64,000 nt of DNA, taken from IMG/VR virus record IMGVR_UViG_3300049198_000021, positions 1 to 64,000 of that record; one strand, given 5' to 3'. The stretch is from a virus. Taxonomy: Duplodnaviria > Caudoviricetes. A program made the position numbers and the translations under genes. Shown here one piece after another: positions 1,843-8,927 of the stretch (positions are counted from its first letter, which is position 1; every line of letters starts with the position of its first letter). Below the pieces are notes generated by a model that saw only the letters and a program-made list of their open reading frames with translations, was not told the origin of the DNA and did no database searches.

Positions 1843-2178
1843 ATGAACGTAGACGACTTTTATGCTGAGTGCGCTGTGATCCTTGGAGTCCCTCACGAGG
1901 GCGAAGAGTTCACCCACTACAAGCGGACCCGCTGGAACAACCGGCGGCCCGGCCGAGGACGGTTTCCCGGTGCTGGTTTGATCCGCGTGTTCGGCGATGT
2001 CGTCCACATGAATATCCGGTCGCCTGTCATCGTGCAGGTTACCGTCGAAGGTTTGCCCGAGGCGTTGGATTTCCTCCGCGATCGGGTTGGCACTATGGGA
2101 GTGTCGTCTAATGGTAAGACAGCGGATTCCAAACCCGCTGACGTGGGTTCGATTCCTACCTCTCCCGCCACACCCTAA
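1843..2178 (+). CDS. hypothetical protein whose 3' end overlaps tRNA-Trp
   Basis: GAGGTG RBS before ATG; phage-like codon usage in the first ~85 codons. Confidence 0.6.
   Translation: MNVDDFYAECAVILGVPHEGEEFTHYKRTRWNNRRPGRGRFPGAGLIRVFGDVVHMNIRSPVIVQVTVEGLPEALDFLRDRVGTMGVSSNGKTADSKPADVGSIPTSPATP
2097..2170 (+). tRNA. tRNA-Trp(CCA)
   Basis: GGGAGTG/CTCTCCC-G-CCA; loop TTCCAAA; TTCGATT. Confidence 0.9.
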
Positions 2179-2235
2179 ATTTTCAATTGACAATCGTGGG
2201 GTTTTACCTTAACGATGCGTCTCTCAAAAATTTAG

Positions 2236-2826
2236 GTGGAACAACTAATGGAATTTTCTGCTCGCCAGCAAACATTCGGTATCAGCCAGCTACAGCGCTT
2301 GCTTGGTAAGAGTTCGCAAGACGCTGAGCGGTTCGCATCTTACAGCGGCTGGTCCGGGCTCTCCGGGCAGATGGTGACGATTGATGTCGCCGGCGCGCTG
2401 AACATGATGGTTCACTCCACTGCTGCTGACTTCGGTGTCGAACGCAATGTCGTCGGTGCTTGGCTGCCGGGCCTGCGGACCGGGGCGCTTATGGCGCTCG
2501 GTCGGAACGTGGACAACTGGACCTTCAATGGCACCCCCGAAGAGCAGAACCGATTTTTCGCGAGCCTGTTTGGCGAGCAGTCCAAGGTCAACGATTTCGT
2601 CGCCACCACGCTTGGCTGCTATTCCGGCACCGCCAAGCGGCAGATGCGTTTCCACTCGGCTACCGATGTAGAGCTTCTTTCCGAAGCCGAGTTCCAGTCC
2701 GGATACAGTGCGCGGTCGCCTCGGTTCGTGATCGATTCGCGGGCCCTCGCCGATCGTCTGTCGGCCATCCAGCAACCCTTGTTCGTGGCAAGCGTCAAGG
2801 TGGTCTCTTCCTCTCCTTATCTCTGA
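2236..2826 (+). CDS. hypothetical protein
   Basis: 196-aa ORF with an upstream TTGACA promoter (~2188). Confidence 0.65.
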   Translation: MEQLMEFSARQQTFGISQLQRLLGKSSQDAERFASYSGWSGLSGQMVTIDVAGALNMMVHSTAADFGVERNVVGAWLPGLRTGALMALGRNVDNWTFNGTPEEQNRFFASLFGEQSKVNDFVATTLGCYSGTAKRQMRFHSATDVELLSEAEFQSGYSARSPRFVIDSRALADRLSAIQQPLFVASVKVVSSSPYL

Positions 2827-2888
2827 TATTTTTCGGATCGAATAATTTTCAGTTGACAGTGAGGACCGAATCGCTTATCTTCCTCCTC

Positions 2889-3280
2889 GTCAAGTGCTTC
2901 GGCATGAAGACTACGGTCGTAGAAGGCCATCGAAGTTAAGCGAAGACGCGGGGGCAGAGCCCGCCGCCTCCACCAAAGACCCCTGCGGCCGCCTGAAACG
3001 CGGTCAGGGCGACGGCTCGCCGAGATTTAGGACGACGGTCCTGAGTAAGGTAGCGGGGTTCTTTGATGGGGGCGAATTAGGATCGATTCGCAAGGCTGAT
3101 GTGGAGAAGCGCCCCGTTTAGATACCGCTCGTTATGCGGATCAAATTCATCAACTGTCAACGACAATGATGTGGTCGTCGCCCGCGAAGAGATTCGTCTC
3201 GCCGCGTAAGCGACAAAATCCCTAAGGCTTCACTCCCTTAGGTGGCGCGTGGTCCCGAGCGTAGCAACAGTTTCGGGACA
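2889..3280 (+). ncRNA. ssrA: circularly permuted (two-piece) tmRNA, tag (A)VNDNDVVVAREEIRLAA
   Basis: 3' piece first (T arm, CGCCTCC-A-CCA 2965-2975), then 5' end GGGGGCGAA-TTAGGATCGA at 3068 with G3:U70; tag ORF 3156-3209 ending LAA-TAA; promoter TTGACA at 2853; outer ends approximate. Confidence 0.9.
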
Positions 3281-3489
3281 ACATCTTTTTCGCCAACGTC
3301 TCGTCCTACTGTTCTAGGCGGTCGAAAGCGAGGGTCACGGTGAGCGGCCCGGCTGCTATTCTGGTTCGAATCCGGAACGAGAAAGCACCCGGAGGTATCC
3401 GGTCTCTGTGTTCTCAGCCATGGTGGGAAGGCGCGGGCGTCTGGGTTCGAATCCCAGCCTGAACGTCGGGGCGCTGGCGAAAGAGATGT
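3281..3489 (+). ncRNA. structured RNA with ~23-bp closing stem and two T-arm (TTCGAAT) modules; Y RNA/YrlA-like candidate
   Basis: 3281-3303 pairs with 3467-3489; TCTGG-TTCGAAT-CCGGA and CTGGG-TTCGAAT-CCCAG. Confidence 0.6.
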
Positions 3490-3534
3490 GAAAATAGTTC
3501 TTGACGAACCGGACGAATCGTCCTAATGGTTTGT

Positions 3535-3741
3535 CACCGAGTTTATCGGGGATTGTGACCTACAGAGGTCAAAGCATGAGAAGAGATCGCCGGGTGCCCG
3601 GAATGATCTATGACGCTCTTGTGGACGGGTTCAGAGCCCGGCACCCCGCGCAGTTACCGCCGGGAGACGAAGGTCTGTCTCCAACTCGCTGTGAAGCTCC
3701 CGGCAACTAGGCCCGGCTGTCGTGAGATGGCCGGGCCTTTC
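3535..3741 (+). ncRNA. candidate structured ncRNA with its own promoter and terminator
   Basis: repeat-type promoter at 3501; several hairpins; terminator GGCCCGGCTGTC-GTGA-GATGGCCGGGCC-TTT. Confidence 0.45.
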
Positions 3742-3869
3742 GATTCGTGGTGAAATTATTTTGGTCCGTAGCTGTCCGCTCCCGTCCAATGCTTCCGAAG
3801 TGAGACATTCTTGCTTGACATGACCGCGATTCTAGCTTAACCATGGCGCTCTTCTGGAGATAGCGCTAC

Positions 3870-4316
3870 ATGACTACGATCGCTTACCGCTCGGGCCGCT
3901 TGGCTGCCGACACATTGATCTCCTATACCAGTATCACCAACGGCTCTCGCGAGAAAATCGCAAAGTGCGGTCGATTTACCGTCGCACTTGCGGGTCCCGC
4001 TTGGCTTCGCCGGCCGTTGGAAGCTTGGTGCGCTGACAGTTGCCCTGAGGAAGAGGTTCCTCAAGTGCTACTCGATCATGGTAACGACTTCTCGGCCCTG
4101 ATCATCGACAATACCACCGGAGAACTCTTCGAGTTCGACAACGGATACCTTCTTCCCATTTTTGCCGATTACACCGCAATCGGTTCTGGCGCTCTACTTG
4201 CGCTAGGTGCCATGGCTCATGGAGCCACCGCTGAGGAAGCCGTCGCGGCGGCCTCCAAGCATGATAAGAACACAGGCGGCCCGGTGACCAGCCTGTCCTT
4301 TTCCCTCACAGCATAA
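3870..4316 (+). CDS. HslV/proteasome-beta-like N-terminal Thr peptidase
   Basis: MTTIAY..G.LAADT start, AIGSG motif, A.EAV.AA...D..TGG. Confidence 0.8.
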   Translation: MTTIAYRSGRLAADTLISYTSITNGSREKIAKCGRFTVALAGPAWLRRPLEAWCADSCPEEEVPQVLLDHGNDFSALIIDNTTGELFEFDNGYLLPIFADYTAIGSGALLALGAMAHGATAEEAVAAASKHDKNTGGPVTSLSFSLTA

Positions 4317-4324
4317 GGTCACCA

Positions 4325-7300
4325 ATGACCCCCTATACCCAACTCATTCACGACCTGATGGGTCGTGCCTCCGGAGCCGTCACCGTCGAAGCTGCCGACG
4401 GGAGCTATATCACAAGCGATGACCTTCTCGAAGTCGGTGCATTCGCTTCCCATGCTGATGACCCGTGGATCGATCTCGTCACCGACGAAGGCAACGCGAT
4501 CGGTGTGTTCGTGGCCGGTAACCCGGAAGTCGTCGAGCCTCAGCCGTCTTTCGATGTCGATGGCGGTATGATCTATATGATCGATGGCGATCCGATCCCC
4601 GGCATGAAGCAGGGCCTGCATATGTGCCCCCTCAGCGTCTTCATGCACAATGGCAAGCCTGATTTCGATGGCCTCAACTGGTATGAACCAGAAGACCTCG
4701 ACCTTACTACGCCGGGCTCATCGCGCAACATCACCCTCATGACTGGTCGCCGCCGCGACGAAGGCCAAGGCAAGTGGAAAGAGATTTCCAGCACCTTCGG
4801 CCAGTTCGAAACCGTGCTACAAGATCACAAGGAAGGGCAGAAAGACGGTCCCTGCTTCCTGCAAGGAAAGTCGGCCAACGGCGCTCGCAAAGCTGTCGCC
4901 ATGATCGAGAACCACATCCTTGGGGTCGATCTCGATTCGGGCGCTCCCTTGACGGATGTGATGGAGACCATCCAGAAGTATGGTCTGGAAGCCGTCATCT
5001 ACACGACTCACAGCCACCTCAAGGACACCAGTGTCATCAAGCGCGACCACTTCATCAAGTGGAACGAGGAAGGTGAGGTCGATGAAGACGCTGTTCGCGA
5101 TTACCTGATCAAGGTCAAGGGGACCTTGCCTCAGATCGTTGACGATCTGGAGATCATCGACGACGCCCACCACACCGAAGAGGGTGTGGTCATCCTCGTC
5201 AAGCACAAGCCGATGCCCAAGTTCCGGGCGGTGTTCCCGCTCAAGGAAGCGTTCGTATTCGCCAAGCGTGGTGGTTCCCAGAAGGATGCCATCAACGAGT
5301 GGAAGGAGCGCTATGCCGGCTTCTGCTCTGAACTGGGCCTGTTCTTCGACGAGAAGTGCGTCGATCCTGCTCGCTTGTTCTACCTGCCCCGCCACCCGGC
5401 CAAGAGCAAGAATCACGGCTCTTGGTTGGTGGTGGGCGAACCGCTCGATCTCGACAAGTTCGATCGAGTGAAGATGAAGCGCGGTCGGACCGGGAAGCGC
5501 AGCGCTGTCTCCAGCAACGCGTTCACGGACGCGGCTGGCGGCGCTGATTACGACGACGAAGATGACGCCGATCGCTACATCACCTCTTGCGGTTTCAACC
5601 TCAAGGGCTGGTCGATCAAATACGCCAAGCGCTTCGAAGTCCAGACCATGATCGAAGAAGTGGTTGGTGGTGACTTCGTTCGCGAATCCCGTGGCAACAA
5701 GCCGGGCGTCCATGTCGAATGCCCCTTCGAAGCTGAACACTCTAGCTTCGGCGGCGGTGGGACGTTCGTGGTCAATGCATCCGACAACTTGGATGACGGC
5801 TACGATGGCGGGTTCACCTTCACCTGCGTCCACAACTCGTGTTCCGGCCGGGACCGACTCGATTACCTCAAGGAGATGATCGAGCAGGAACTGATCACCG
5901 TTGCTGACCTCAAGAACAAGGACTTCCTCTTCGAACTGGAAGAGGATGAAGAGGAAGAGGACGTTCCCGCTCAGCGCGAGAAGCCGAAGAAGCACACCCA
6001 GCAGACCGACAAGGAACACCGGGAAGAGCATGAGGATCAGATCAACGACGATGACTTCGGCGATGATGAAGACTCGATGCTCAAGGCATTCAACCGGCGC
6101 TATGCGGTGATTCGCACCAGCGGGGGTGTTCGAATCCTCGTGGAGCCCCGGACAGCAGAAGATGATGTCGTCTTCGAAAGCCAGAACGATGTGGCTCTCT
6201 ATGAGAAGAACCGTATCATCTGGGTAACCGAAGGGAAGCAGACCCGCAAGGTCGAGGCGTTCAAGCAATGGCTTGAGTGGGAGAAGCGTCGCACCTATCG
6301 CAACGTCGTGTTCGCGCCGGGCGAGAAGACCCCGAAGGATGTCTACAATCTCTTCCAAGGCTGGCCCTTTGAGGCGGTCCCGACGACATGGGAAAACGTG
6401 CTGGACAACAAGCACGAGCCGGTGGCTGGTGACTGGTCCATGCTGCGTGGTCACATCTACGAGAACATCTGCGAATCGAATGATGCCTATTTCGAATGGC
6501 TGATGACGTGGATCGCCATGCTCTTCCAGAAGCCTCAGGCCAAGCCCGGCTCGACGGTGGTCATCACCGGGAAGAAGGGCACCGGTAAGTCAACGCTGTT
6601 CGACTACATCAACCAGCTTCTCGGTCGGTGTGGGATCACTGTGTCCCAGCGTAAGCAGATCGTCGGGCAGTTCAACGGGCACCTTGCAACCACCTTGCTG
6701 ATGGTCTGCGAAGAAGCCTTCTGGGCGGCTGATCCGCAAGCCGAAGGTGTCCTCAAGGACATGATCACCAACAAGTCGGTGCTGATCGAAAAGAAGGGCT
6801 ACGATCCGATCCAGTCGCAAAACTACACGCGTCTGGCGCTGATCTCGAACAACGAATGGGTCGTCCCGGCCTCGCTCAAGGACGAACGGCGCTTCTTCGT
6901 GCTTCGTTGTTCCGACGCGGTGCAGGGTAACATCCATTTCTTCGAGCAGATGCGCGAGCAGATGGAGAAGAAGGGCGGTCTCGAAGCCATGCTCTACGAT
7001 CTCCTCCACTGGGAACCGGTGGGCGGGACCTTCTCGACCTTGTTCACGCCGCCGGCAACCGCTTACCTCCAGCAGCAGCAGATCGAATCGCTGTCTGGTG
7101 TGCAGAAGTTCATGCTCGAACTGGTCAAGTCTGGGGTCTATGAAACCCATGATGATAAGGTGACGCCGATCGAACTGAACACCGACACCGAGACGACTGT
7201 CTACGCTGTGGACATGCGTGCGGCTGTGGAAGATTACGTCCGGTTCCAGTTCTCCTCGGACAAGGCCAAAACCAGCTACGACGACATCTCGGCCGTGGTC

Positions 7301-7477
7301 ACCGACTGGTTCGGTGCCCGTGAGATCAAGATGAAGGTGGACGGTCAGGTGAACGGGAAGCGCACCTTTATCTTCCCGCCGCTGTCTGAGGTCCGCTCGA
7401 AGCTCAAGGAAAACAAGGGTCTGGATGTAGAGGCAATGACCGAAGAGGCGGTGAAGTCAATCCGGCTTCGGTCGTAA
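4325..7477 (+). CDS. DNA primase-helicase (primase domain plus C-terminal D5/SF3-like NTPase)
   Basis: GVDLD, YTTHSH, PKFRAVFPL, D....DPARLFYLP, zinc motif CPFEAEH..CVH..C, Walker A GKKGTGKS, ERRF. Confidence 0.85.
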   Translation: MTPYTQLIHDLMGRASGAVTVEAADGSYITSDDLLEVGAFASHADDPWIDLVTDEGNAIGVFVAGNPEVVEPQPSFDVDGGMIYMIDGDPIPGMKQGLHMCPLSVFMHNGKPDFDGLNWYEPEDLDLTTPGSSRNITLMTGRRRDEGQGKWKEISSTFGQFETVLQDHKEGQKDGPCFLQGKSANGARKAVAMIENHILGVDLDSGAPLTDVMETIQKYGLEAVIYTTHSHLKDTSVIKRDHFIKWNEEGEVDEDAVRDYLIKVKGTLPQIVDDLEIIDDAHHTEEGVVILVKHKPMPKFRAVFPLKEAFVFAKRGGSQKDAINEWKERYAGFCSELGLFFDEKCVDPARLFYLPRHPAKSKNHGSWLVVGEPLDLDKFDRVKMKRGRTGKRSAVSSNAFTDAAGGADYDDEDDADRYITSCGFNLKGWSIKYAKRFEVQTMIEEVVGGDFVRESRGNKPGVHVECPFEAEHSSFGGGGTFVVNASDNLDDGYDGGFTFTCVHNSCSGRDRLDYLKEMIEQELITVADLKNKDFLFELEEDEEEEDVPAQREKPKKHTQQTDKEHREEHEDQINDDDFGDDEDSMLKAFNRRYAVIRTSGGVRILVEPRTAEDDVVFESQNDVALYEKNRIIWVTEGKQTRKVEAFKQWLEWEKRRTYRNVVFAPGEKTPKDVYNLFQGWPFEAVPTTWENVLDNKHEPVAGDWSMLRGHIYENICESNDAYFEWLMTWIAMLFQKPQAKPGSTVVITGKKGTGKSTLFDYINQLLGRCGITVSQRKQIVGQFNGHLATTLLMVCEEAFWAADPQAEGVLKDMITNKSVLIEKKGYDPIQSQNYTRLALISNNEWVVPASLKDERRFFVLRCSDAVQGNIHFFEQMREQMEKKGGLEAMLYDLLHWEPVGGTFSTLFTPPATAYLQQQQIESLSGVQKFMLELVKSGVYETHDDKVTPIELNTDTETTVYAVDMRAAVEDYVRFQFSSDKAKTSYDDISAVVTDWFGAREIKMKVDGQVNGKRTFIFPPLSEVRSKLKENKGLDVEAMTEEAVKSIRLRS

Positions 7478-7685: not shown

Positions 7686-8927
7686 ATGCGTATCGATCAG
7701 ATTACCGATTCACTGGGTAACAAGAAGCTGGTGAAGCTCTGGGAGCCGAAAGGCTATCCATTCGAGCCCGAAGCTGTCGAGCAGATCAACAACATGGCTC
7801 GCCTCCCATTCGTTTTCAAGCACGTTGCTGTGATGCCTGATGCCCACGCAGGCAAGGGCTCCACCGTGGGGACCGTTTTTGCAACCAAGGGCGCTATCGT
7901 GCCGGCGGCTGTTGGCGTTGACATCGGCTGCGGCATGATGGCCGTCCGCACTTCGCTGACCGCGAGCGATCTTCCGGACAACCTGTCGCACATCCGTGGG
8001 ATGATCGAGGCTGCTGTGCCTCACGGTCGTGGGAACATGGACCAGATTCGTTCTGGCCGTGATCCGGGTTCGTGGGGTAAGCCGACCAAGGACGCAGAAA
8101 TGCGTTGGAAGAAGCTGGCGGACCGCTACGATGCGATCATCGCCAAGCACCCGAAGATCGCTCAGCGTCGCCACCCGGTGCATCACATGGGCACGCTGGG
8201 GACCGGCAACCACTTCATCGAAATCTGTTTGGACGAGGACCAGAACGTCTGGGTCATGCTCCACTCGGGTTCGCGTGGTATCGGCAACTCGATCGGCACC
8301 TACTTCATCGAGAAGGCGAAGCGCGAGATGGAGCGTTACCATATCGCTCAGTATCTGCCGGATGAAGACCTGTCGTATCTGGTTGAGCATACCGAGGTCT
8401 ACGACGATTACGTCGAAGCCGTCGGCTGGGCTCAGGACTTCGCGATGGAGAACCGTCAGACGATGATGGATGCCGTGTTGGGCGTGATGCGCCAGACCCT
8501 GCCGCCGTTCCTGTCCGATCAGATGGCAGTCAACTGCCACCACAATTACGTGACCAAGGAGCAGCATTACGGTGAGGCCGTGCTGGTGACCCGCAAGGGC
8601 GCTGTGCAGGCTCGTGAAGGCACCATGGGGATCATTCCGGGGTCGATGGGCACCGGGAGCTTCATTGTCCGTGGTCTCGGTAACCACCACTCGTTCCACT
8701 CGTGCAGCCATGGGGCTGGGCGCGTGATGAGCCGCACCAAGGCGAAGAAGCTGATCTCGATGGAACAGCACGCCGAGGCGATGAAGGGAATCGAAGCCCG
8801 TTTGGATGAAGACGTGCTGGACGAGAGCCCGGCCGCCTACAAGCCGATCGGGGCTGTGATGGATGCTCAGAGCGATCTCGTCGAGATCGTTCACCGCCTC
8901 CGTCAGGTTCTCAACGTCAAGGGCTGA
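7686..8927 (+). CDS. rtcB: RtcB RNA ligase
   Basis: MPDAHAGKG, VGVDIGCGM, GTLGTGNHF, HSGSRG, HHNY, RKGA, PGSMG, SHGAGR, DESP.AYK motifs. Confidence 0.97.
   Translation: MRIDQITDSLGNKKLVKLWEPKGYPFEPEAVEQINNMARLPFVFKHVAVMPDAHAGKGSTVGTVFATKGAIVPAAVGVDIGCGMMAVRTSLTASDLPDNLSHIRGMIEAAVPHGRGNMDQIRSGRDPGSWGKPTKDAEMRWKKLADRYDAIIAKHPKIAQRRHPVHHMGTLGTGNHFIEICLDEDQNVWVMLHSGSRGIGNSIGTYFIEKAKREMERYHIAQYLPDEDLSYLVEHTEVYDDYVEAVGWAQDFAMENRQTMMDAVLGVMRQTLPPFLSDQMAVNCHHNYVTKEQHYGEAVLVTRKGAVQAREGTMGIIPGSMGTGSFIVRGLGNHHSFHSCSHGAGRVMSRTKAKKLISMEQHAEAMKGIEARLDEDVLDESPAAYKPIGAVMDAQSDLVEIVHRLRQVLNVKG

What the first reader, a model, noticed from the sequence alone, without database searches (positions are those of the whole stretch)
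3281..3489. ~210-nt RNA with two tRNA-elbow mimics inside a long closing stem
Seen: a 23-bp terminal stem with one mismatch. Module 1 has a D-like hairpin ACTG-TTCTAGG-CGGT, a stem-loop and T arm TCTGG-TTCGAAT-CCGGA. Module 2 has a TGGTGG loop and T arm CTGGG-TTCGAAT-CCCAG. There is no CCA end. Established: bacterial YrlA Y RNAs combine a long stem with one tRNA-like domain and co-occur with Ro60/RtcB. Inference: a double-mimic Y-like RNA or decoy for tRNA-sensing or tRNA-cleaving defences; no Ro60 in this window.
Basis: partly seen in the sequence, partly recalled or inferred. Interest (0 to 1): 0.72.

Follow-up and report, generated by a model that had tools for sequence, protein, structure and literature searches.

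The report
Two-headed tRNA-mimic RNA in phage
Right after its own tmRNA gene, this Erythrobacter-type phage encodes a conserved ~210-base folded RNA that shows two tRNA "elbows" inside a long stem but has no anticodon or CCA end; it is a new variant of the tRNA-mimicking Y-like RNAs, and its partner and function are unknown.

Summary
Window 3281-3489 (+) folds into a 25-position terminal stem that encloses a D-like hairpin, a hairpin, a T arm, a variable hairpin, a second D-like loop and a second T arm. The fold z-score is -4.6.

Five sequence variants exist: cultured Erythrobacter phage XM05 and uncultured relatives. Their changes preserve pairing: 96% of cells are paired against 40-52% in slid controls, and 18 pairs changed on both sides.

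The element is single-copy and non-coding. It directly follows a permuted tmRNA that has its own promoter-like site. It lies 4.2 kb upstream of a phage rtcB on the same strand.

The Y-RNA reading is only partly supported:
- Host-clade bacteria carry rsr(Ro60)-YrlA-rtcB operons, and their RtcB is 63% identical to the phage's.
- The Rfam YrlA model does not match the element.
- No phage carrying it encodes Ro60.
- Rsr was found in only 9 of 121 host-family genomes.

The arm order D-hairpin-T-hairpin-D-T is a cyclic permutation of tandem T-hairpin-D RNAs that I found in other phages. Earlier notes of this scan describe similar RNAs on other DNA, there with a DUF7873 protein, which I did not find here.

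Best reading: a processed, trans-acting double tRNA-elbow mimic acting as decoy or scaffold. I rate it a new variant of a known kind. There are no expression or binding data.

The parts
2853..2881 (+). Sigma-70-like promoter (TTGACA-17-TATCTT) in front of the tmRNA; probable start of the transcript that also carries the element
   Evidence: The same hexamers are seen in XM05. No terminator-like site is called between here and 3489.
2849..3280 (+). Circularly permuted (two-piece, alphaproteobacterial type) tmRNA gene. It ends one base before the element.
   Evidence: Rfam alpha_tmRNA 88.4 bits and tmRNA_permuted 82.6 bits.
3281..3305 (+). P1, 5' strand of the terminal stem. Positions 3282-3295 are invariant in all five variants.
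   Evidence: There are 25 pairs and 4 of them changed on both sides. The A.C at 3296/3474 is A-U or G-C in the other variants.
3308..3322 (+). D-like arm 1: 4-bp stem, 7-nt loop UUCUAGG (loop invariant)
   Evidence: The outer pair is A-U, G-C or U-A in the three lineages; 100% of cells are paired.
3321..3328 (+). GUCGAAAG, a match to the YrlA motif GNCGAAN0-1G. Present in 4 of 5 variants; the L009 variant reads GAUGACAAAG here.
   Evidence: The motif occurs 1.34 times per kb in this genome, so two hits in 209 nt have P of about 0.03.
3327..3354 (+). Hairpin in the anticodon-arm or variable-arm position: 3+5 bp with a loop of 6-10 nt. It is not an anticodon loop.
   Evidence: helices 3 and 4, 4 pairs with changes on both sides.
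3360..3376 (+). T arm 1: 5-bp stem closed by G-C, loop UUCGAAU
   Evidence: Three of 5 pairs changed on both sides; 100% of cells are paired.
3379..3415 (+). Capped acceptor-like hairpin (AS). Its length varies from about 20 to 50 nt between variants, and its basal pairs covary.
   Evidence: helix 6.
3417..3432 (+). D-like arm 2: GCC/AUGGUGGGAA/GGC. The UGGU(R)G(R)AA core is shared by all variants.
   Evidence: The stem (helix 7) is kept only in the window's subgroup; XM05 and L009 read AAGUGGUAGAA.
3441..3457 (+). T arm 2: 5-bp stem closed by G-C, loop UUCGAAU
   Evidence: Three of 5 pairs changed on both sides. RNAalifold adds a possible 3-bp extension.
3465..3489 (+). P1, 3' strand. It contains an invariant GGCGAAAG (3476-3483), a second match to GNCGAAN0-1G.
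7686..8927 (+). rtcB (RNA 3'-phosphate ligase), same strand, 4.2 kb downstream. This is context, not shown to act with the RNA.
   Evidence: Annotated as a tRNA-splicing ligase in XM05, vB_EliS-L02 and Lacusarx. 63% identical to Erythrobacter ani RtcB.

Best explanation
The element is a non-coding RNA of about 209 nt. It is probably made from the same transcript as the phage tmRNA and released by processing. Its 5' and 3' ends pair in a 25-position stem.

The arm order is D1, hairpin, T1, capped hairpin, D2, T2. From this I read two tRNA-like bodies. The outer one is in normal order: P1 stands in for the acceptor stem, with D1 and T2. The inner one is circularly permuted, as in YrlA: T1, a capped acceptor-like hairpin, then D2. 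It sits where the outer body's anticodon arm would be.

The RNA has no anticodon loop and no CCA, so it cannot decode or be charged. I propose that it works by mimicry. It offers two tRNA elbows, plus a sequence-invariant stem, to one or more proteins that read the tRNA elbow, and so titrates or scaffolds them during infection. This would fit the phage's tRNA, tmRNA and RtcB translation-maintenance and counter-defence kit.

Shown here: the structure, its conservation, its single copy, its non-coding nature and its genomic context. Inferred: that the D and T loops form elbows, which D pairs with which T, co-transcription with the tmRNA, processing, and the decoy or scaffold function.
For: - Fold stability: z = -4.57 here and -4.28 in XM05.
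- Five variants keep P1, D1, the hairpin, T1, AS and T2 through compensatory changes. RNAalifold on the same alignment recovers P1, D1, the hairpin, T1 and T2 on its own.
- Both T loops have the tRNA consensus UUCGA(A/C/G)U closed by G-C, and both D-like loops keep GG.
- The AS length varies by amounts that are not multiples of three, and no Pfam-bearing ORF covers the element.
- A model built from it finds one copy in the genome, none in five host-clade genomes, and only tRNA pairs at 22 bits or less elsewhere.
- A promoter-like site precedes the tmRNA, and no terminator-like site lies between the tmRNA and the element.
- At the same position, after the tmRNA, a more distant relative (L013) carries two tandem T-hairpin-D cores that hit the YrlA core at 38.1 and 23.4 bits.
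- Four further, unrelated phage contigs (L132, L134, L135, L138) carry two T arms with one or two canonical D arms inside 14-21-bp closing stems.
- The phage itself has a single-module YrlA-like RNA in its tRNA array.
- Published work shows that a YrlA tRNA-like domain folds as a true tRNA L-shape, and proposes that elbow-binding proteins are its effectors and that it may compete with an anticodon nuclease (10.1101/312249; PMC7790460).
Against: - No transcript, end-mapping, modification or binding datum exists.
- There are only five variants from three lineages of one narrow phage clade, and the pair counts come from a model-fitted alignment.
- The D1 loop (UUCUAGG, with GG abutting the stem) and the D2 loop are atypical. 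The D2 stem is not conserved.
- T2 is separated from P1 by 6-7 unpaired nt, unlike a tRNA.
- No helix joins the two bodies, so the nested reading is topological inference.
- Close relatives (vB_EliS-L02, Lacusarx, L011, L014) lack the element yet keep the tmRNA and rtcB. It is therefore dispensable for both.
- No candidate protein partner was identified.
Confidence: 0.5

Rival explanations
1. It is a true Y RNA that uses the host's Ro60 (Rsr). On this view the invariant outer half of P1, with its GGCGAAAG, is an Rsr-binding site, and the two tRNA-like heads tether or gate host Rsr/PNPase or aid RtcB. The RNA would have been captured or evolved together with rtcB from a host rsr-yrlA-rtcB operon.
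For: - Host-clade genomes have rtcR / rsr - YrlA (69-74 bits, at or above the Rfam threshold) - rtcB.
- The phage RtcB is 63% identical to theirs.
- The putative Rsr motif GNCGAAN0-1G (PMC4201824) occurs twice, once invariantly.
- As in Y RNAs, the most conserved part is the stem formed by the two ends.
Against: - The YrlA model does not match.
- The invariant motif lies on the 3' strand of the stem, whereas in YrlA it lies near the 5' end.
- The motif is short, so two hits have P of about 0.03, and the internal copy is lost in L009.
- No Ro60 is found in any phage carrying the element.
- Rsr is found in only 9 of 121 genomes sampled from the host family, so most potential hosts would lack the partner.
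- Relatives with rtcB lack the RNA.
Confidence: 0.12
2. It is a cis-acting processing and stability module for the tmRNA transcript. tRNA-like shapes and a stem of more than 20 bp would recruit RNase P, RNase Z or RNase III to cut exactly at the tmRNA 3' end and to protect the transcript end. This would resemble mascRNA at the MALAT1 3' end, or the processing stems of rRNA operons. The released RNA would then have no function of its own.
For: - The element starts one base after the tmRNA model ends.
- There is no promoter-like site of its own and no terminator-like site in between.
- P1 is long enough for RNase III (established knowledge).
- There are weak Rfam similarities to mascRNA (16.5 bits) and to the Deinococcus Y RNA tRNA-like part (17.1 bits), both not significant.
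- L013 also has tRNA-like units right after its tmRNA.
Against: - Relatives process the same tmRNA without the element.
- One tRNA-like unit would suffice for punctuation, yet two T arms, a D arm and two hairpins are all kept by compensatory change.
- Similar two-headed RNAs occur in small phages with no tmRNA nearby.
- The invariance of 14 bp of P1 on both strands goes beyond what a generic RNase III stem needs.
Confidence: 0.15
3. It is the RNA subunit of a Ro60-independent particle built with a phage protein. That would make it analogous to the 'double tRNA-mimic RNA plus DUF7873' pairs that earlier notes of this scan describe on other DNA.
For: - Sequence-invariant P1 suggests a specific protein contact.
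- Earlier scan notes (e1-2703945, e1-4274050; unverified AI notes) report two-headed permuted tRNA mimics next to DUF7873 in many bacteria and phages, some inside tRNA clusters.
Against: - No DUF7873 hit was found among the 69 ORFs of 195-320 aa in the whole phage genome.
- The flanking genes are a tmRNA and another small RNA unit, not a protein gene.
- The arm order differs from that class (a cyclic permutation), and the RNA is half as long.
- The later check quoted in those notes gave the pairing claim itself only 22/100.
Confidence: 0.12
4. It is two decayed tRNA genes, or leftover tRNA fragments such as an old attachment site, with no present function.
For: It lies next to a tRNA array, and both T arms have generic tRNA sequence.
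Against: - Eighteen pairs changed on both sides while pairing is kept.
- The terminal stem is conserved in all five variants.
- Neither ARAGORN nor the Rfam tRNA model finds a remnant cloverleaf.
- The same architecture is kept while interior sequence has diverged to about 70%.
Confidence: 0.03

Closest known systems
YrlA (Y RNA-like A), Rfam RF02553; Chen et al. 2014 (PMC4201824); structure in Wang et al. 2018 (10.1101/312249)
   Same: - The 5' and 3' ends pair in a stem.
- There is a T arm, then a capped acceptor-like hairpin, then a D-type loop, with no anticodon loop and no CCA.
- An optional hairpin lies upstream of the T arm.
- A GNCGAAN0-1G-type motif is present.
- It is encoded near rtcB, and host-clade bacteria have bona fide YrlA directly upstream of an rtcB that is 63% identical to the phage's.
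   Different: - There is no match to the family model.
- A second T arm and a second D arm wrap around the YrlA-like core.
- The stem is 25 bp against about 8-10 bp.
- The invariant motif lies on the 3' strand.
- No Ro60 is encoded by the phage.
- The gene follows a tmRNA, not rsr.
Tandem permuted tRNA-mimic RNAs of phages. These have no Rfam family, and I found no paper on them; examples are L013:3440-3577, L132, L138 and, as a variant, L134 and L135. Earlier notes of this scan describe longer ones beside DUF7873.
   Same: Two T arms and two D-type loops enclosed by one long terminal stem; no anticodon and no CCA; encoded by phages that lack Ro60. L013 has it at the same genomic position, directly after the tmRNA.
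   Different: - The order there is T-AS-D-T-AS-D, whereas here it is D-hairpin-T-AS-D-T. That is the same circle opened at one acceptor hairpin instead of at the anticodon-side stem.
- There is no sequence similarity beyond generic T and D motifs.
- No DUF7873 was found in this genome.
Deinococcus radiodurans Yrn1 (Rfam RF01053)
   Same: Normal-order D-like loop, short hairpin and T arm closed by a stem. The window's second module aligns to model positions 27-89.
   Different: The score is 17.1 bits against a threshold of 80 (E about 1), so it is not significant. The 4-bp closing helix of that alignment is not conserved in the other variants. No Rsr is present.
tmRNA tRNA-like domain; mascRNA at the MALAT1 3' end
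   Same: These are tRNA-shaped modules without an anticodon that act through tRNA-binding or tRNA-processing factors. The element abuts a tmRNA. The stretch from D1 onward (CUGUUCUAGGCGGUCGAA) loosely resembles the UAGGAUCGA stretch of the phage's own tmRNA (by eye only).
   Different: It has no CCA, no aminoacylatable acceptor end and no reading frame. The mascRNA hit is 16.5 bits against 42.5.
Phage T4 RNA C and RNA D
   Same: Small stable RNAs transcribed from a phage tRNA region whose roles are still unknown (PMC3014915).
   Different: No sequence or structural comparison was made here; this is only a precedent.

Membership tests
YrlA (RF02553) | Scores at or above the family's gathering threshold (69 bits) with the covariance model | tested here: not met
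   No match at E<=10 on the window stretch or on the 221-nt stretch alone, and the element is not among 14 genome-wide hits. Positive control: host loci L036, L037, L038, L044 and L055 score 69.4-74.2 bits.
YrlA (RF02553) | Permuted tRNA-like core in the order T arm, capped acceptor-like hairpin, D arm | tested here: met
   T1 3360-3376, AS 3379-3415, D2-like 3417-3432. T1 and the AS base covary. The D2 stem is conserved only within the window's subgroup.
YrlA (RF02553) | Stem formed by the 5' and 3' ends, carrying GNCGAAN0-1G near the 5' end (the putative Rsr site) | tested here: inconclusive
   The stem is present (25 positions). The motif is found at 3321-3328 (internal, 4 of 5 variants) and at 3476-3483 (3' strand, 5 of 5 variants), but not on the 5' strand. 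The chance of two hits is about 0.03.
YrlA (RF02553) | Encoded within about 4 kb of a Ro60/TROVE gene on the same strand | tested here: not met
   No TROVE domain and no homologue of E. ani Rsr in the complete 176.5-kb genome or in five related records. The TROVE model did not score on the E. ani Rsr itself, which is why the protein search was added.
YrlA (RF02553) | Bound by Rsr, and carries tRNA-type modifications | not testable with these tools
   Needs immunoprecipitation and modification mapping.
tRNA (RF00005) | Cloverleaf with a 7-bp acceptor stem, a 5-bp anticodon stem with a 7-nt loop, and a CCA or CCA-addable end | tested here: not met
   ARAGORN and the Rfam tRNA model give no call at 3281-3489. 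The hairpin loop is 6-10 nt. There is no CCA.
Tandem permuted double tRNA-mimic RNAs (undescribed class; earlier scan notes link some to DUF7873) | Two T-AS-D units in tandem inside one closing stem | tested here: not met
   The order here is D-hairpin-T-AS-D-T, a cyclic permutation with only one AS hairpin. L013, L132 and L138 show the tandem order.
Tandem permuted double tRNA-mimic RNAs (undescribed class; earlier scan notes link some to DUF7873) | Adjacent DUF7873 protein gene | tested here: not met
   The Pfam scan of all 69 ORFs of 195-320 aa in the genome listed 19 families, none of them DUF7873. The neighbours are a tmRNA and a small RNA unit.

The most novel reading that the evidence does not exclude
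Phages carry a hitherto undescribed class of 'two-headed' tRNA mimics: two anticodon-less tRNA bodies fused in one RNA. The class exists in several circular permutations. This element would be the variant in which a normal-order body encloses a YrlA-like inverted body. These RNAs would act without Ro60 as an anti-defence decoy, or as the core of a new RNA-protein particle that engages two tRNA-elbow-reading proteins at once, for example a tRNA-targeting nuclease, RtcB, or modification or processing enzymes.
Probability: 0.25. Interest if true: 0.8.

Novelty: new variant of a known kind. Interest (0 to 1): 0.58.

Why it matters
tRNA cleavage and tRNA repair are a main battlefield between phages and bacteria, and the role of the tRNA-like Y RNAs that sit beside RtcB is still unknown.

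This element shows that a phage can keep a tRNA-mimic RNA, here with two heads, without encoding Ro60. It does so beside its own tmRNA and on the same strand as rtcB, 4.2 kb upstream. Together with the tandem forms found in unrelated phages, this suggests that elbow mimicry is a reusable RNA module in phages, and that Ro60 is not its only possible partner.

A cultured phage, XM05 on Erythrobacter sp. JL475, carries the element, while a close relative, vB_EliS-L02, lacks it. The question can therefore be tested directly by deletion, pull-down and structure probing.

If it turns out to be only a processing signal, it is still a compact example of tRNA punctuation applied to a tmRNA.

Tried and rejected
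- **Rfam at permissive thresholds** on 2100-4200 and on the element alone gave only non-significant partial hits: Deinococcus Y RNA 17.1 bits, mascRNA 16.5, sX4 11.7, UPD-PKib on the wrong strand.
- **RNAalifold on the raw MAFFT alignment** paired the two T arms with each other. This is an artefact of the palindromic TTCGAA and breaks in XM05 and L009, so I rejected it.
- **A tRNA-type acceptor pairing for module 1** (UCUCGU with ACGAGA, seen only in the window copy) is not conserved in L004, XM05 or L009. Rejected.
- **The 4-bp GUUC/GAAC closure of module 2**, suggested by the Deinococcus model, is not conserved. Rejected.
- **A pseudoknot between the D1 loop (CUAGG) and CCUAG next to AS** fits L004 and L010 only. 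Rejected.
- **The metagenome scan** for the P1 + D1 signature gave one copy identical to the L004 type and one chance match, so no new lineages.
- **BLAST against 50,697 phage records** found only XM05.
- **The P1 sequences** do not recur elsewhere in the genome, so P1 is not a repeated protein-binding site.
- **The band-7/RtcB association**: phiCbK has a band-7 gene directly upstream of rtcB, but this phage has no Band_7 domain, and ARAGORN finds no tRNA in the phiCbK stretch.
- **The name 'DUF7873'** could not be searched as a family, so I replaced that search with a Pfam scan of 69 ORFs.
- **Gene context of the tandem-type RNAs** in other phages is not uniform, so no common partner emerged: a D5-type primase-helicase downstream in L140; a GroEL-like and an Acb2/Tad1-like gene downstream in L141; only small unknown ORFs near L132 and L138.
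- **A coding reading** (40-codon ORF at 3340-3462; a minus-strand 'hypothetical protein' annotated in XM05 over the tmRNA end) is rejected because of indels that break the frame and because the changes are compensatory in stems.

Full report
**What the window is.** The window is the first 64 kb of a 176.5-kb virus record that CheckV rates as complete. Its nearest cultured relative is Erythrobacter phage XM05, at about 82% nucleotide identity over this region. Erythrobacter phage vB_EliS-L02 and Sphingobium phage Lacusarx are next. All of these are CbK-like siphoviruses (PMC9127768).

All features below are on the + strand, in this order:
- a tRNA array at 261-2170, which continues at the other end of the record;
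- a sigma-70-like promoter at 2853-2881;
- a circularly permuted alphaproteobacterial-type tmRNA at 2849-3280 (88 bits);
- the element at 3281-3489;
- a further promoter-like site with a small terminated unit at about 3500-3745;
- an HslV-like gene at 3870-4316;
- a large DUF5906 primase-helicase at 4325-7477;
- rtcB at 7686-8927.

**Observation.** The single-sequence fold has a terminal stem of 25 positions and z = -4.57 against dinucleotide shuffles. The XM05 copy gives z = -4.28. The T-loop consensus GGTTCRANTCC occurs 11 times in the window, nine times in the tRNA array and twice in the element, against 0.48 expected.

**Relatives.** BLAST, a pattern scan and a search around HslV homologues found five distinct variants:
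- the window copy (209 nt);
- L010 (211 nt);
- L004 (192 nt), identical in L005-L008, in the other IMG/VR stretches that match the D1 pattern on those contigs, and in one metagenome contig;
- XM05 (195 nt);
- L009 (226 nt).

vB_EliS-L02, Lacusarx, L011/L012 and L014 have the tmRNA and the downstream genes but no such element.

**Structure.** I derived a structure by hand from the three closest variants and built a covariance model from it (R1). I then let the model align XM05 (109 bits) and L009 (72 bits).

On that alignment 96.4% of cells form standard pairs, against 40-52% when partners are slid by one to three columns. Eighteen of 53 pairs have a change on both sides, and 0 of 500 column shuffles reach the observed values. 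By helix:
- P1 has 4 pairs changed on both sides. The window's A.C mismatch is A-U or G-C in the other variants.
- D1 has 1, the hairpin 4, T1 3, the AS base 2 and T2 3.
- The stem of the second D-like arm holds only in the window's subgroup. XM05 and L009 keep the loop core AAGUGGUAGAA without a clear stem.

RNAalifold run on the same alignment recovers P1, D1, the hairpin, T1 and T2. On the raw MAFFT alignment it instead paired the two palindromic T loops, which I reject as an artefact.

The outer 14 bp of P1 are invariant on both strands in all five variants, although the interior has diverged to about 70%. This points to a sequence-specific contact or processing site. The limits are five variants in three lineages and a model-fitted alignment.

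**It is not a gene for a protein or a tRNA.** The AS hairpin differs in length by amounts that break any frame. ARAGORN and the Rfam tRNA model do not call the element. The hairpin in the anticodon position has a loop of 6-10 nt, and there is no CCA. R1 finds one copy in the phage genome, none in five host-clade genomes, and only tRNA pairs at 22 bits or less in the other loci.

**Reading the architecture.** In a tRNA, the strand that leaves the T stem runs straight into the acceptor stem, and the strand that leaves the acceptor stem runs into the D arm. Here T1 is followed, after 1-3 nt, by a capped hairpin, and then after 1-4 nt by the second D-type loop. That is the YrlA order, T-AS-D (PMC4201824).

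The remaining parts are in normal tRNA order around it: P1 5' strand, 2-4 nt, D1, then T2, 6-7 nt, P1 3' strand. I therefore read an outer, normal-order tRNA-like frame with a permuted, YrlA-like body in its anticodon position. This is inference from topology; no helix linking the two bodies is evident.

**Other phages support the general idea.**
- At the same place after its tmRNA, the more distant relative L013 has T-AS-D-linker-T-AS-D inside a short closing stem. The Rfam YrlA model hits both cores there, at 38.1 and 23.4 bits, both below threshold.
- A pattern for 'T loop, 18-34 nt, canonical D arm, 10-22 nt, T loop' found twelve viral contigs.
- In L132 and L138 the region folds into two T-AS-D units within closing stems of about 19-21 bp. 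In L134/L141 and L135/L140 it folds into a variant with a second T arm and a D-like loop within closing stems of about 14-19 bp.
- None of these is covered by an Rfam family at threshold, and none of the contigs has a TROVE or RtcB match.
- The window's order, D-hairpin-T-AS-D-T within P1, is the tandem order read as a circle and opened at one acceptor hairpin.
- Earlier notes of this scan describe longer two-headed permuted tRNA mimics beside a DUF7873 protein on other DNA. I treated them as leads only. A Pfam scan of all 69 ORFs of 195-320 aa in this genome found no DUF7873.

**The Y-RNA hypothesis: points in favour.**
- The phage RtcB is 63% identical to RtcB of Erythrobacter ani, Altererythrobacter and other Sphingomonadales.
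- In five of eleven such host loci, a YrlA at or above the Rfam threshold lies 200-400 nt upstream of rtcB.
- The E. ani locus reads rtcR, rsr (Ro60 vWA domain, 53.8 bits), YrlA, rtcB, an unknown gene, RlaP.
- The putative Rsr motif GNCGAAN0-1G occurs twice in the element.

**The Y-RNA hypothesis: points against.**
- The YrlA model does not match the element.
- The invariant motif copy is on the 3' strand, whereas YrlA has it near the 5' end.
- The motif is frequent in this genome (1.34 per kb; two hits have P of about 0.03).
- No Ro60 is found in this genome, in XM05 or in four related contigs, either by the TROVE model or by the E. ani Rsr protein.
- Rsr is found in only 9 of 121 genomes sampled from the host family.

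The element works like a YrlA in shape, but it fails the membership tests.

**Other readings.** A cis-acting processing or stability role is plausible from the zero-spacer junction with the tmRNA and the long stem. It does not explain the conservation of six separate helices, the absence of the element in relatives with the same tmRNA, or the occurrence of similar RNAs far from any tmRNA. Decayed tRNAs are excluded by the covariation.

**Verdict.** This is a real, conserved, clade-restricted structured RNA. The best description is a two-headed tRNA-elbow mimic, a new variant of the tRNA-like Y-RNA kind. It is probably released from the tmRNA transcript and probably acts by binding proteins that read the tRNA elbow, as a decoy or scaffold. 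Its function, its partner and even its expression remain unshown. I found no description of it in Rfam 15 or in the papers searched. T4 RNA C and RNA D are an old precedent for unexplained stable RNAs from a phage tRNA region (PMC3014915).

Noticed in passing
G000:C1:173786-173889 (+), outside the window; L026:1501-1604: A single-module YrlA-like RNA lies in the phage's tRNA array between tRNA-Pro(cgg) and tRNA-Ile. It has a T arm, a capped hairpin CACCGG/CCGGUG, UA, a canonical D arm and a two-part closing stem. It scores 37.2 bits full-length on Rfam YrlA, below the 69-bit threshold. Likely counterparts score 37.5 bits in the L004 phage and 27.8 bits in XM05.
   Followed up: partly
L013:3440-3577: A related 164-kb phage has two tandem permuted tRNA-like cores (T, capped hairpin, D) directly after its tmRNA. 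The YrlA core hits are 38.1 and 23.4 bits. The acceptor-like strands CAUCCC/GGGAUG are complementary, so this is not a tRNA dimer.
   Followed up: partly
L132:13661-13859, L138:3754-3928 (-), L134:47-225, L135:104-273 (-); near copies in L141 and L140: Unrelated small phage contigs (15-49 kb, one complete) carry RNAs with two T arms and one or two canonical D arms inside 14-21-bp closing stems. There is no Rfam family for them and no TROVE or RtcB on the contigs. In L140 the RNA sits about 60 nt upstream of a D5-type primase-helicase. In L141 it sits upstream of a GroEL-like gene and an Acb2/Tad1-like gene.
   Followed up: partly
window 3497-3745: A promoter-like TTGACG-17-TAATGG is followed by a unit of about 200 nt that ends in a strong hairpin plus T-run (3711-3745). 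The promoter and the terminal part are conserved in XM05, vB_EliS-L02 and L011. It is a separate small RNA candidate, already noted by the scan.
   Followed up: no
window 2171-2848: About 680 nt lie between tRNA-Trp and the tmRNA that XM05 lacks; there the two genes are 14 nt apart. The stretch holds a 196-codon ORF (2236-2826) with no Pfam match.
   Followed up: partly
L036:1697-8414 (Erythrobacter ani); L055:5351-5598 (Novosphingobium): The E. ani locus reads rtcR (divergent), rsr, YrlA, rtcB, a 140-aa unknown and RlaP. The Pfam TROVE model did not score on this Rsr; only the Ro60 vWA domain did. The Novosphingobium locus has two YrlA genes in tandem, both above threshold.
   Followed up: partly
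L129:4735-7127 (Caulobacter phage phiCbK): A band-7 lipoprotein gene and a short 'hypothetical' stretch lie directly upstream of rtcB. This recalls the band-7 / tRNA-like / RtcB association mentioned in 10.1101/312249. ARAGORN finds no tRNA there.
   Followed up: partly
G000, one of the 69 ORFs of 195-320 aa (position not resolved): One ORF matches the Phage_integrase family (E = 1.6e-21) in a phage whose cultured relative vB_EliS-L02 is described as lytic.
   Followed up: no
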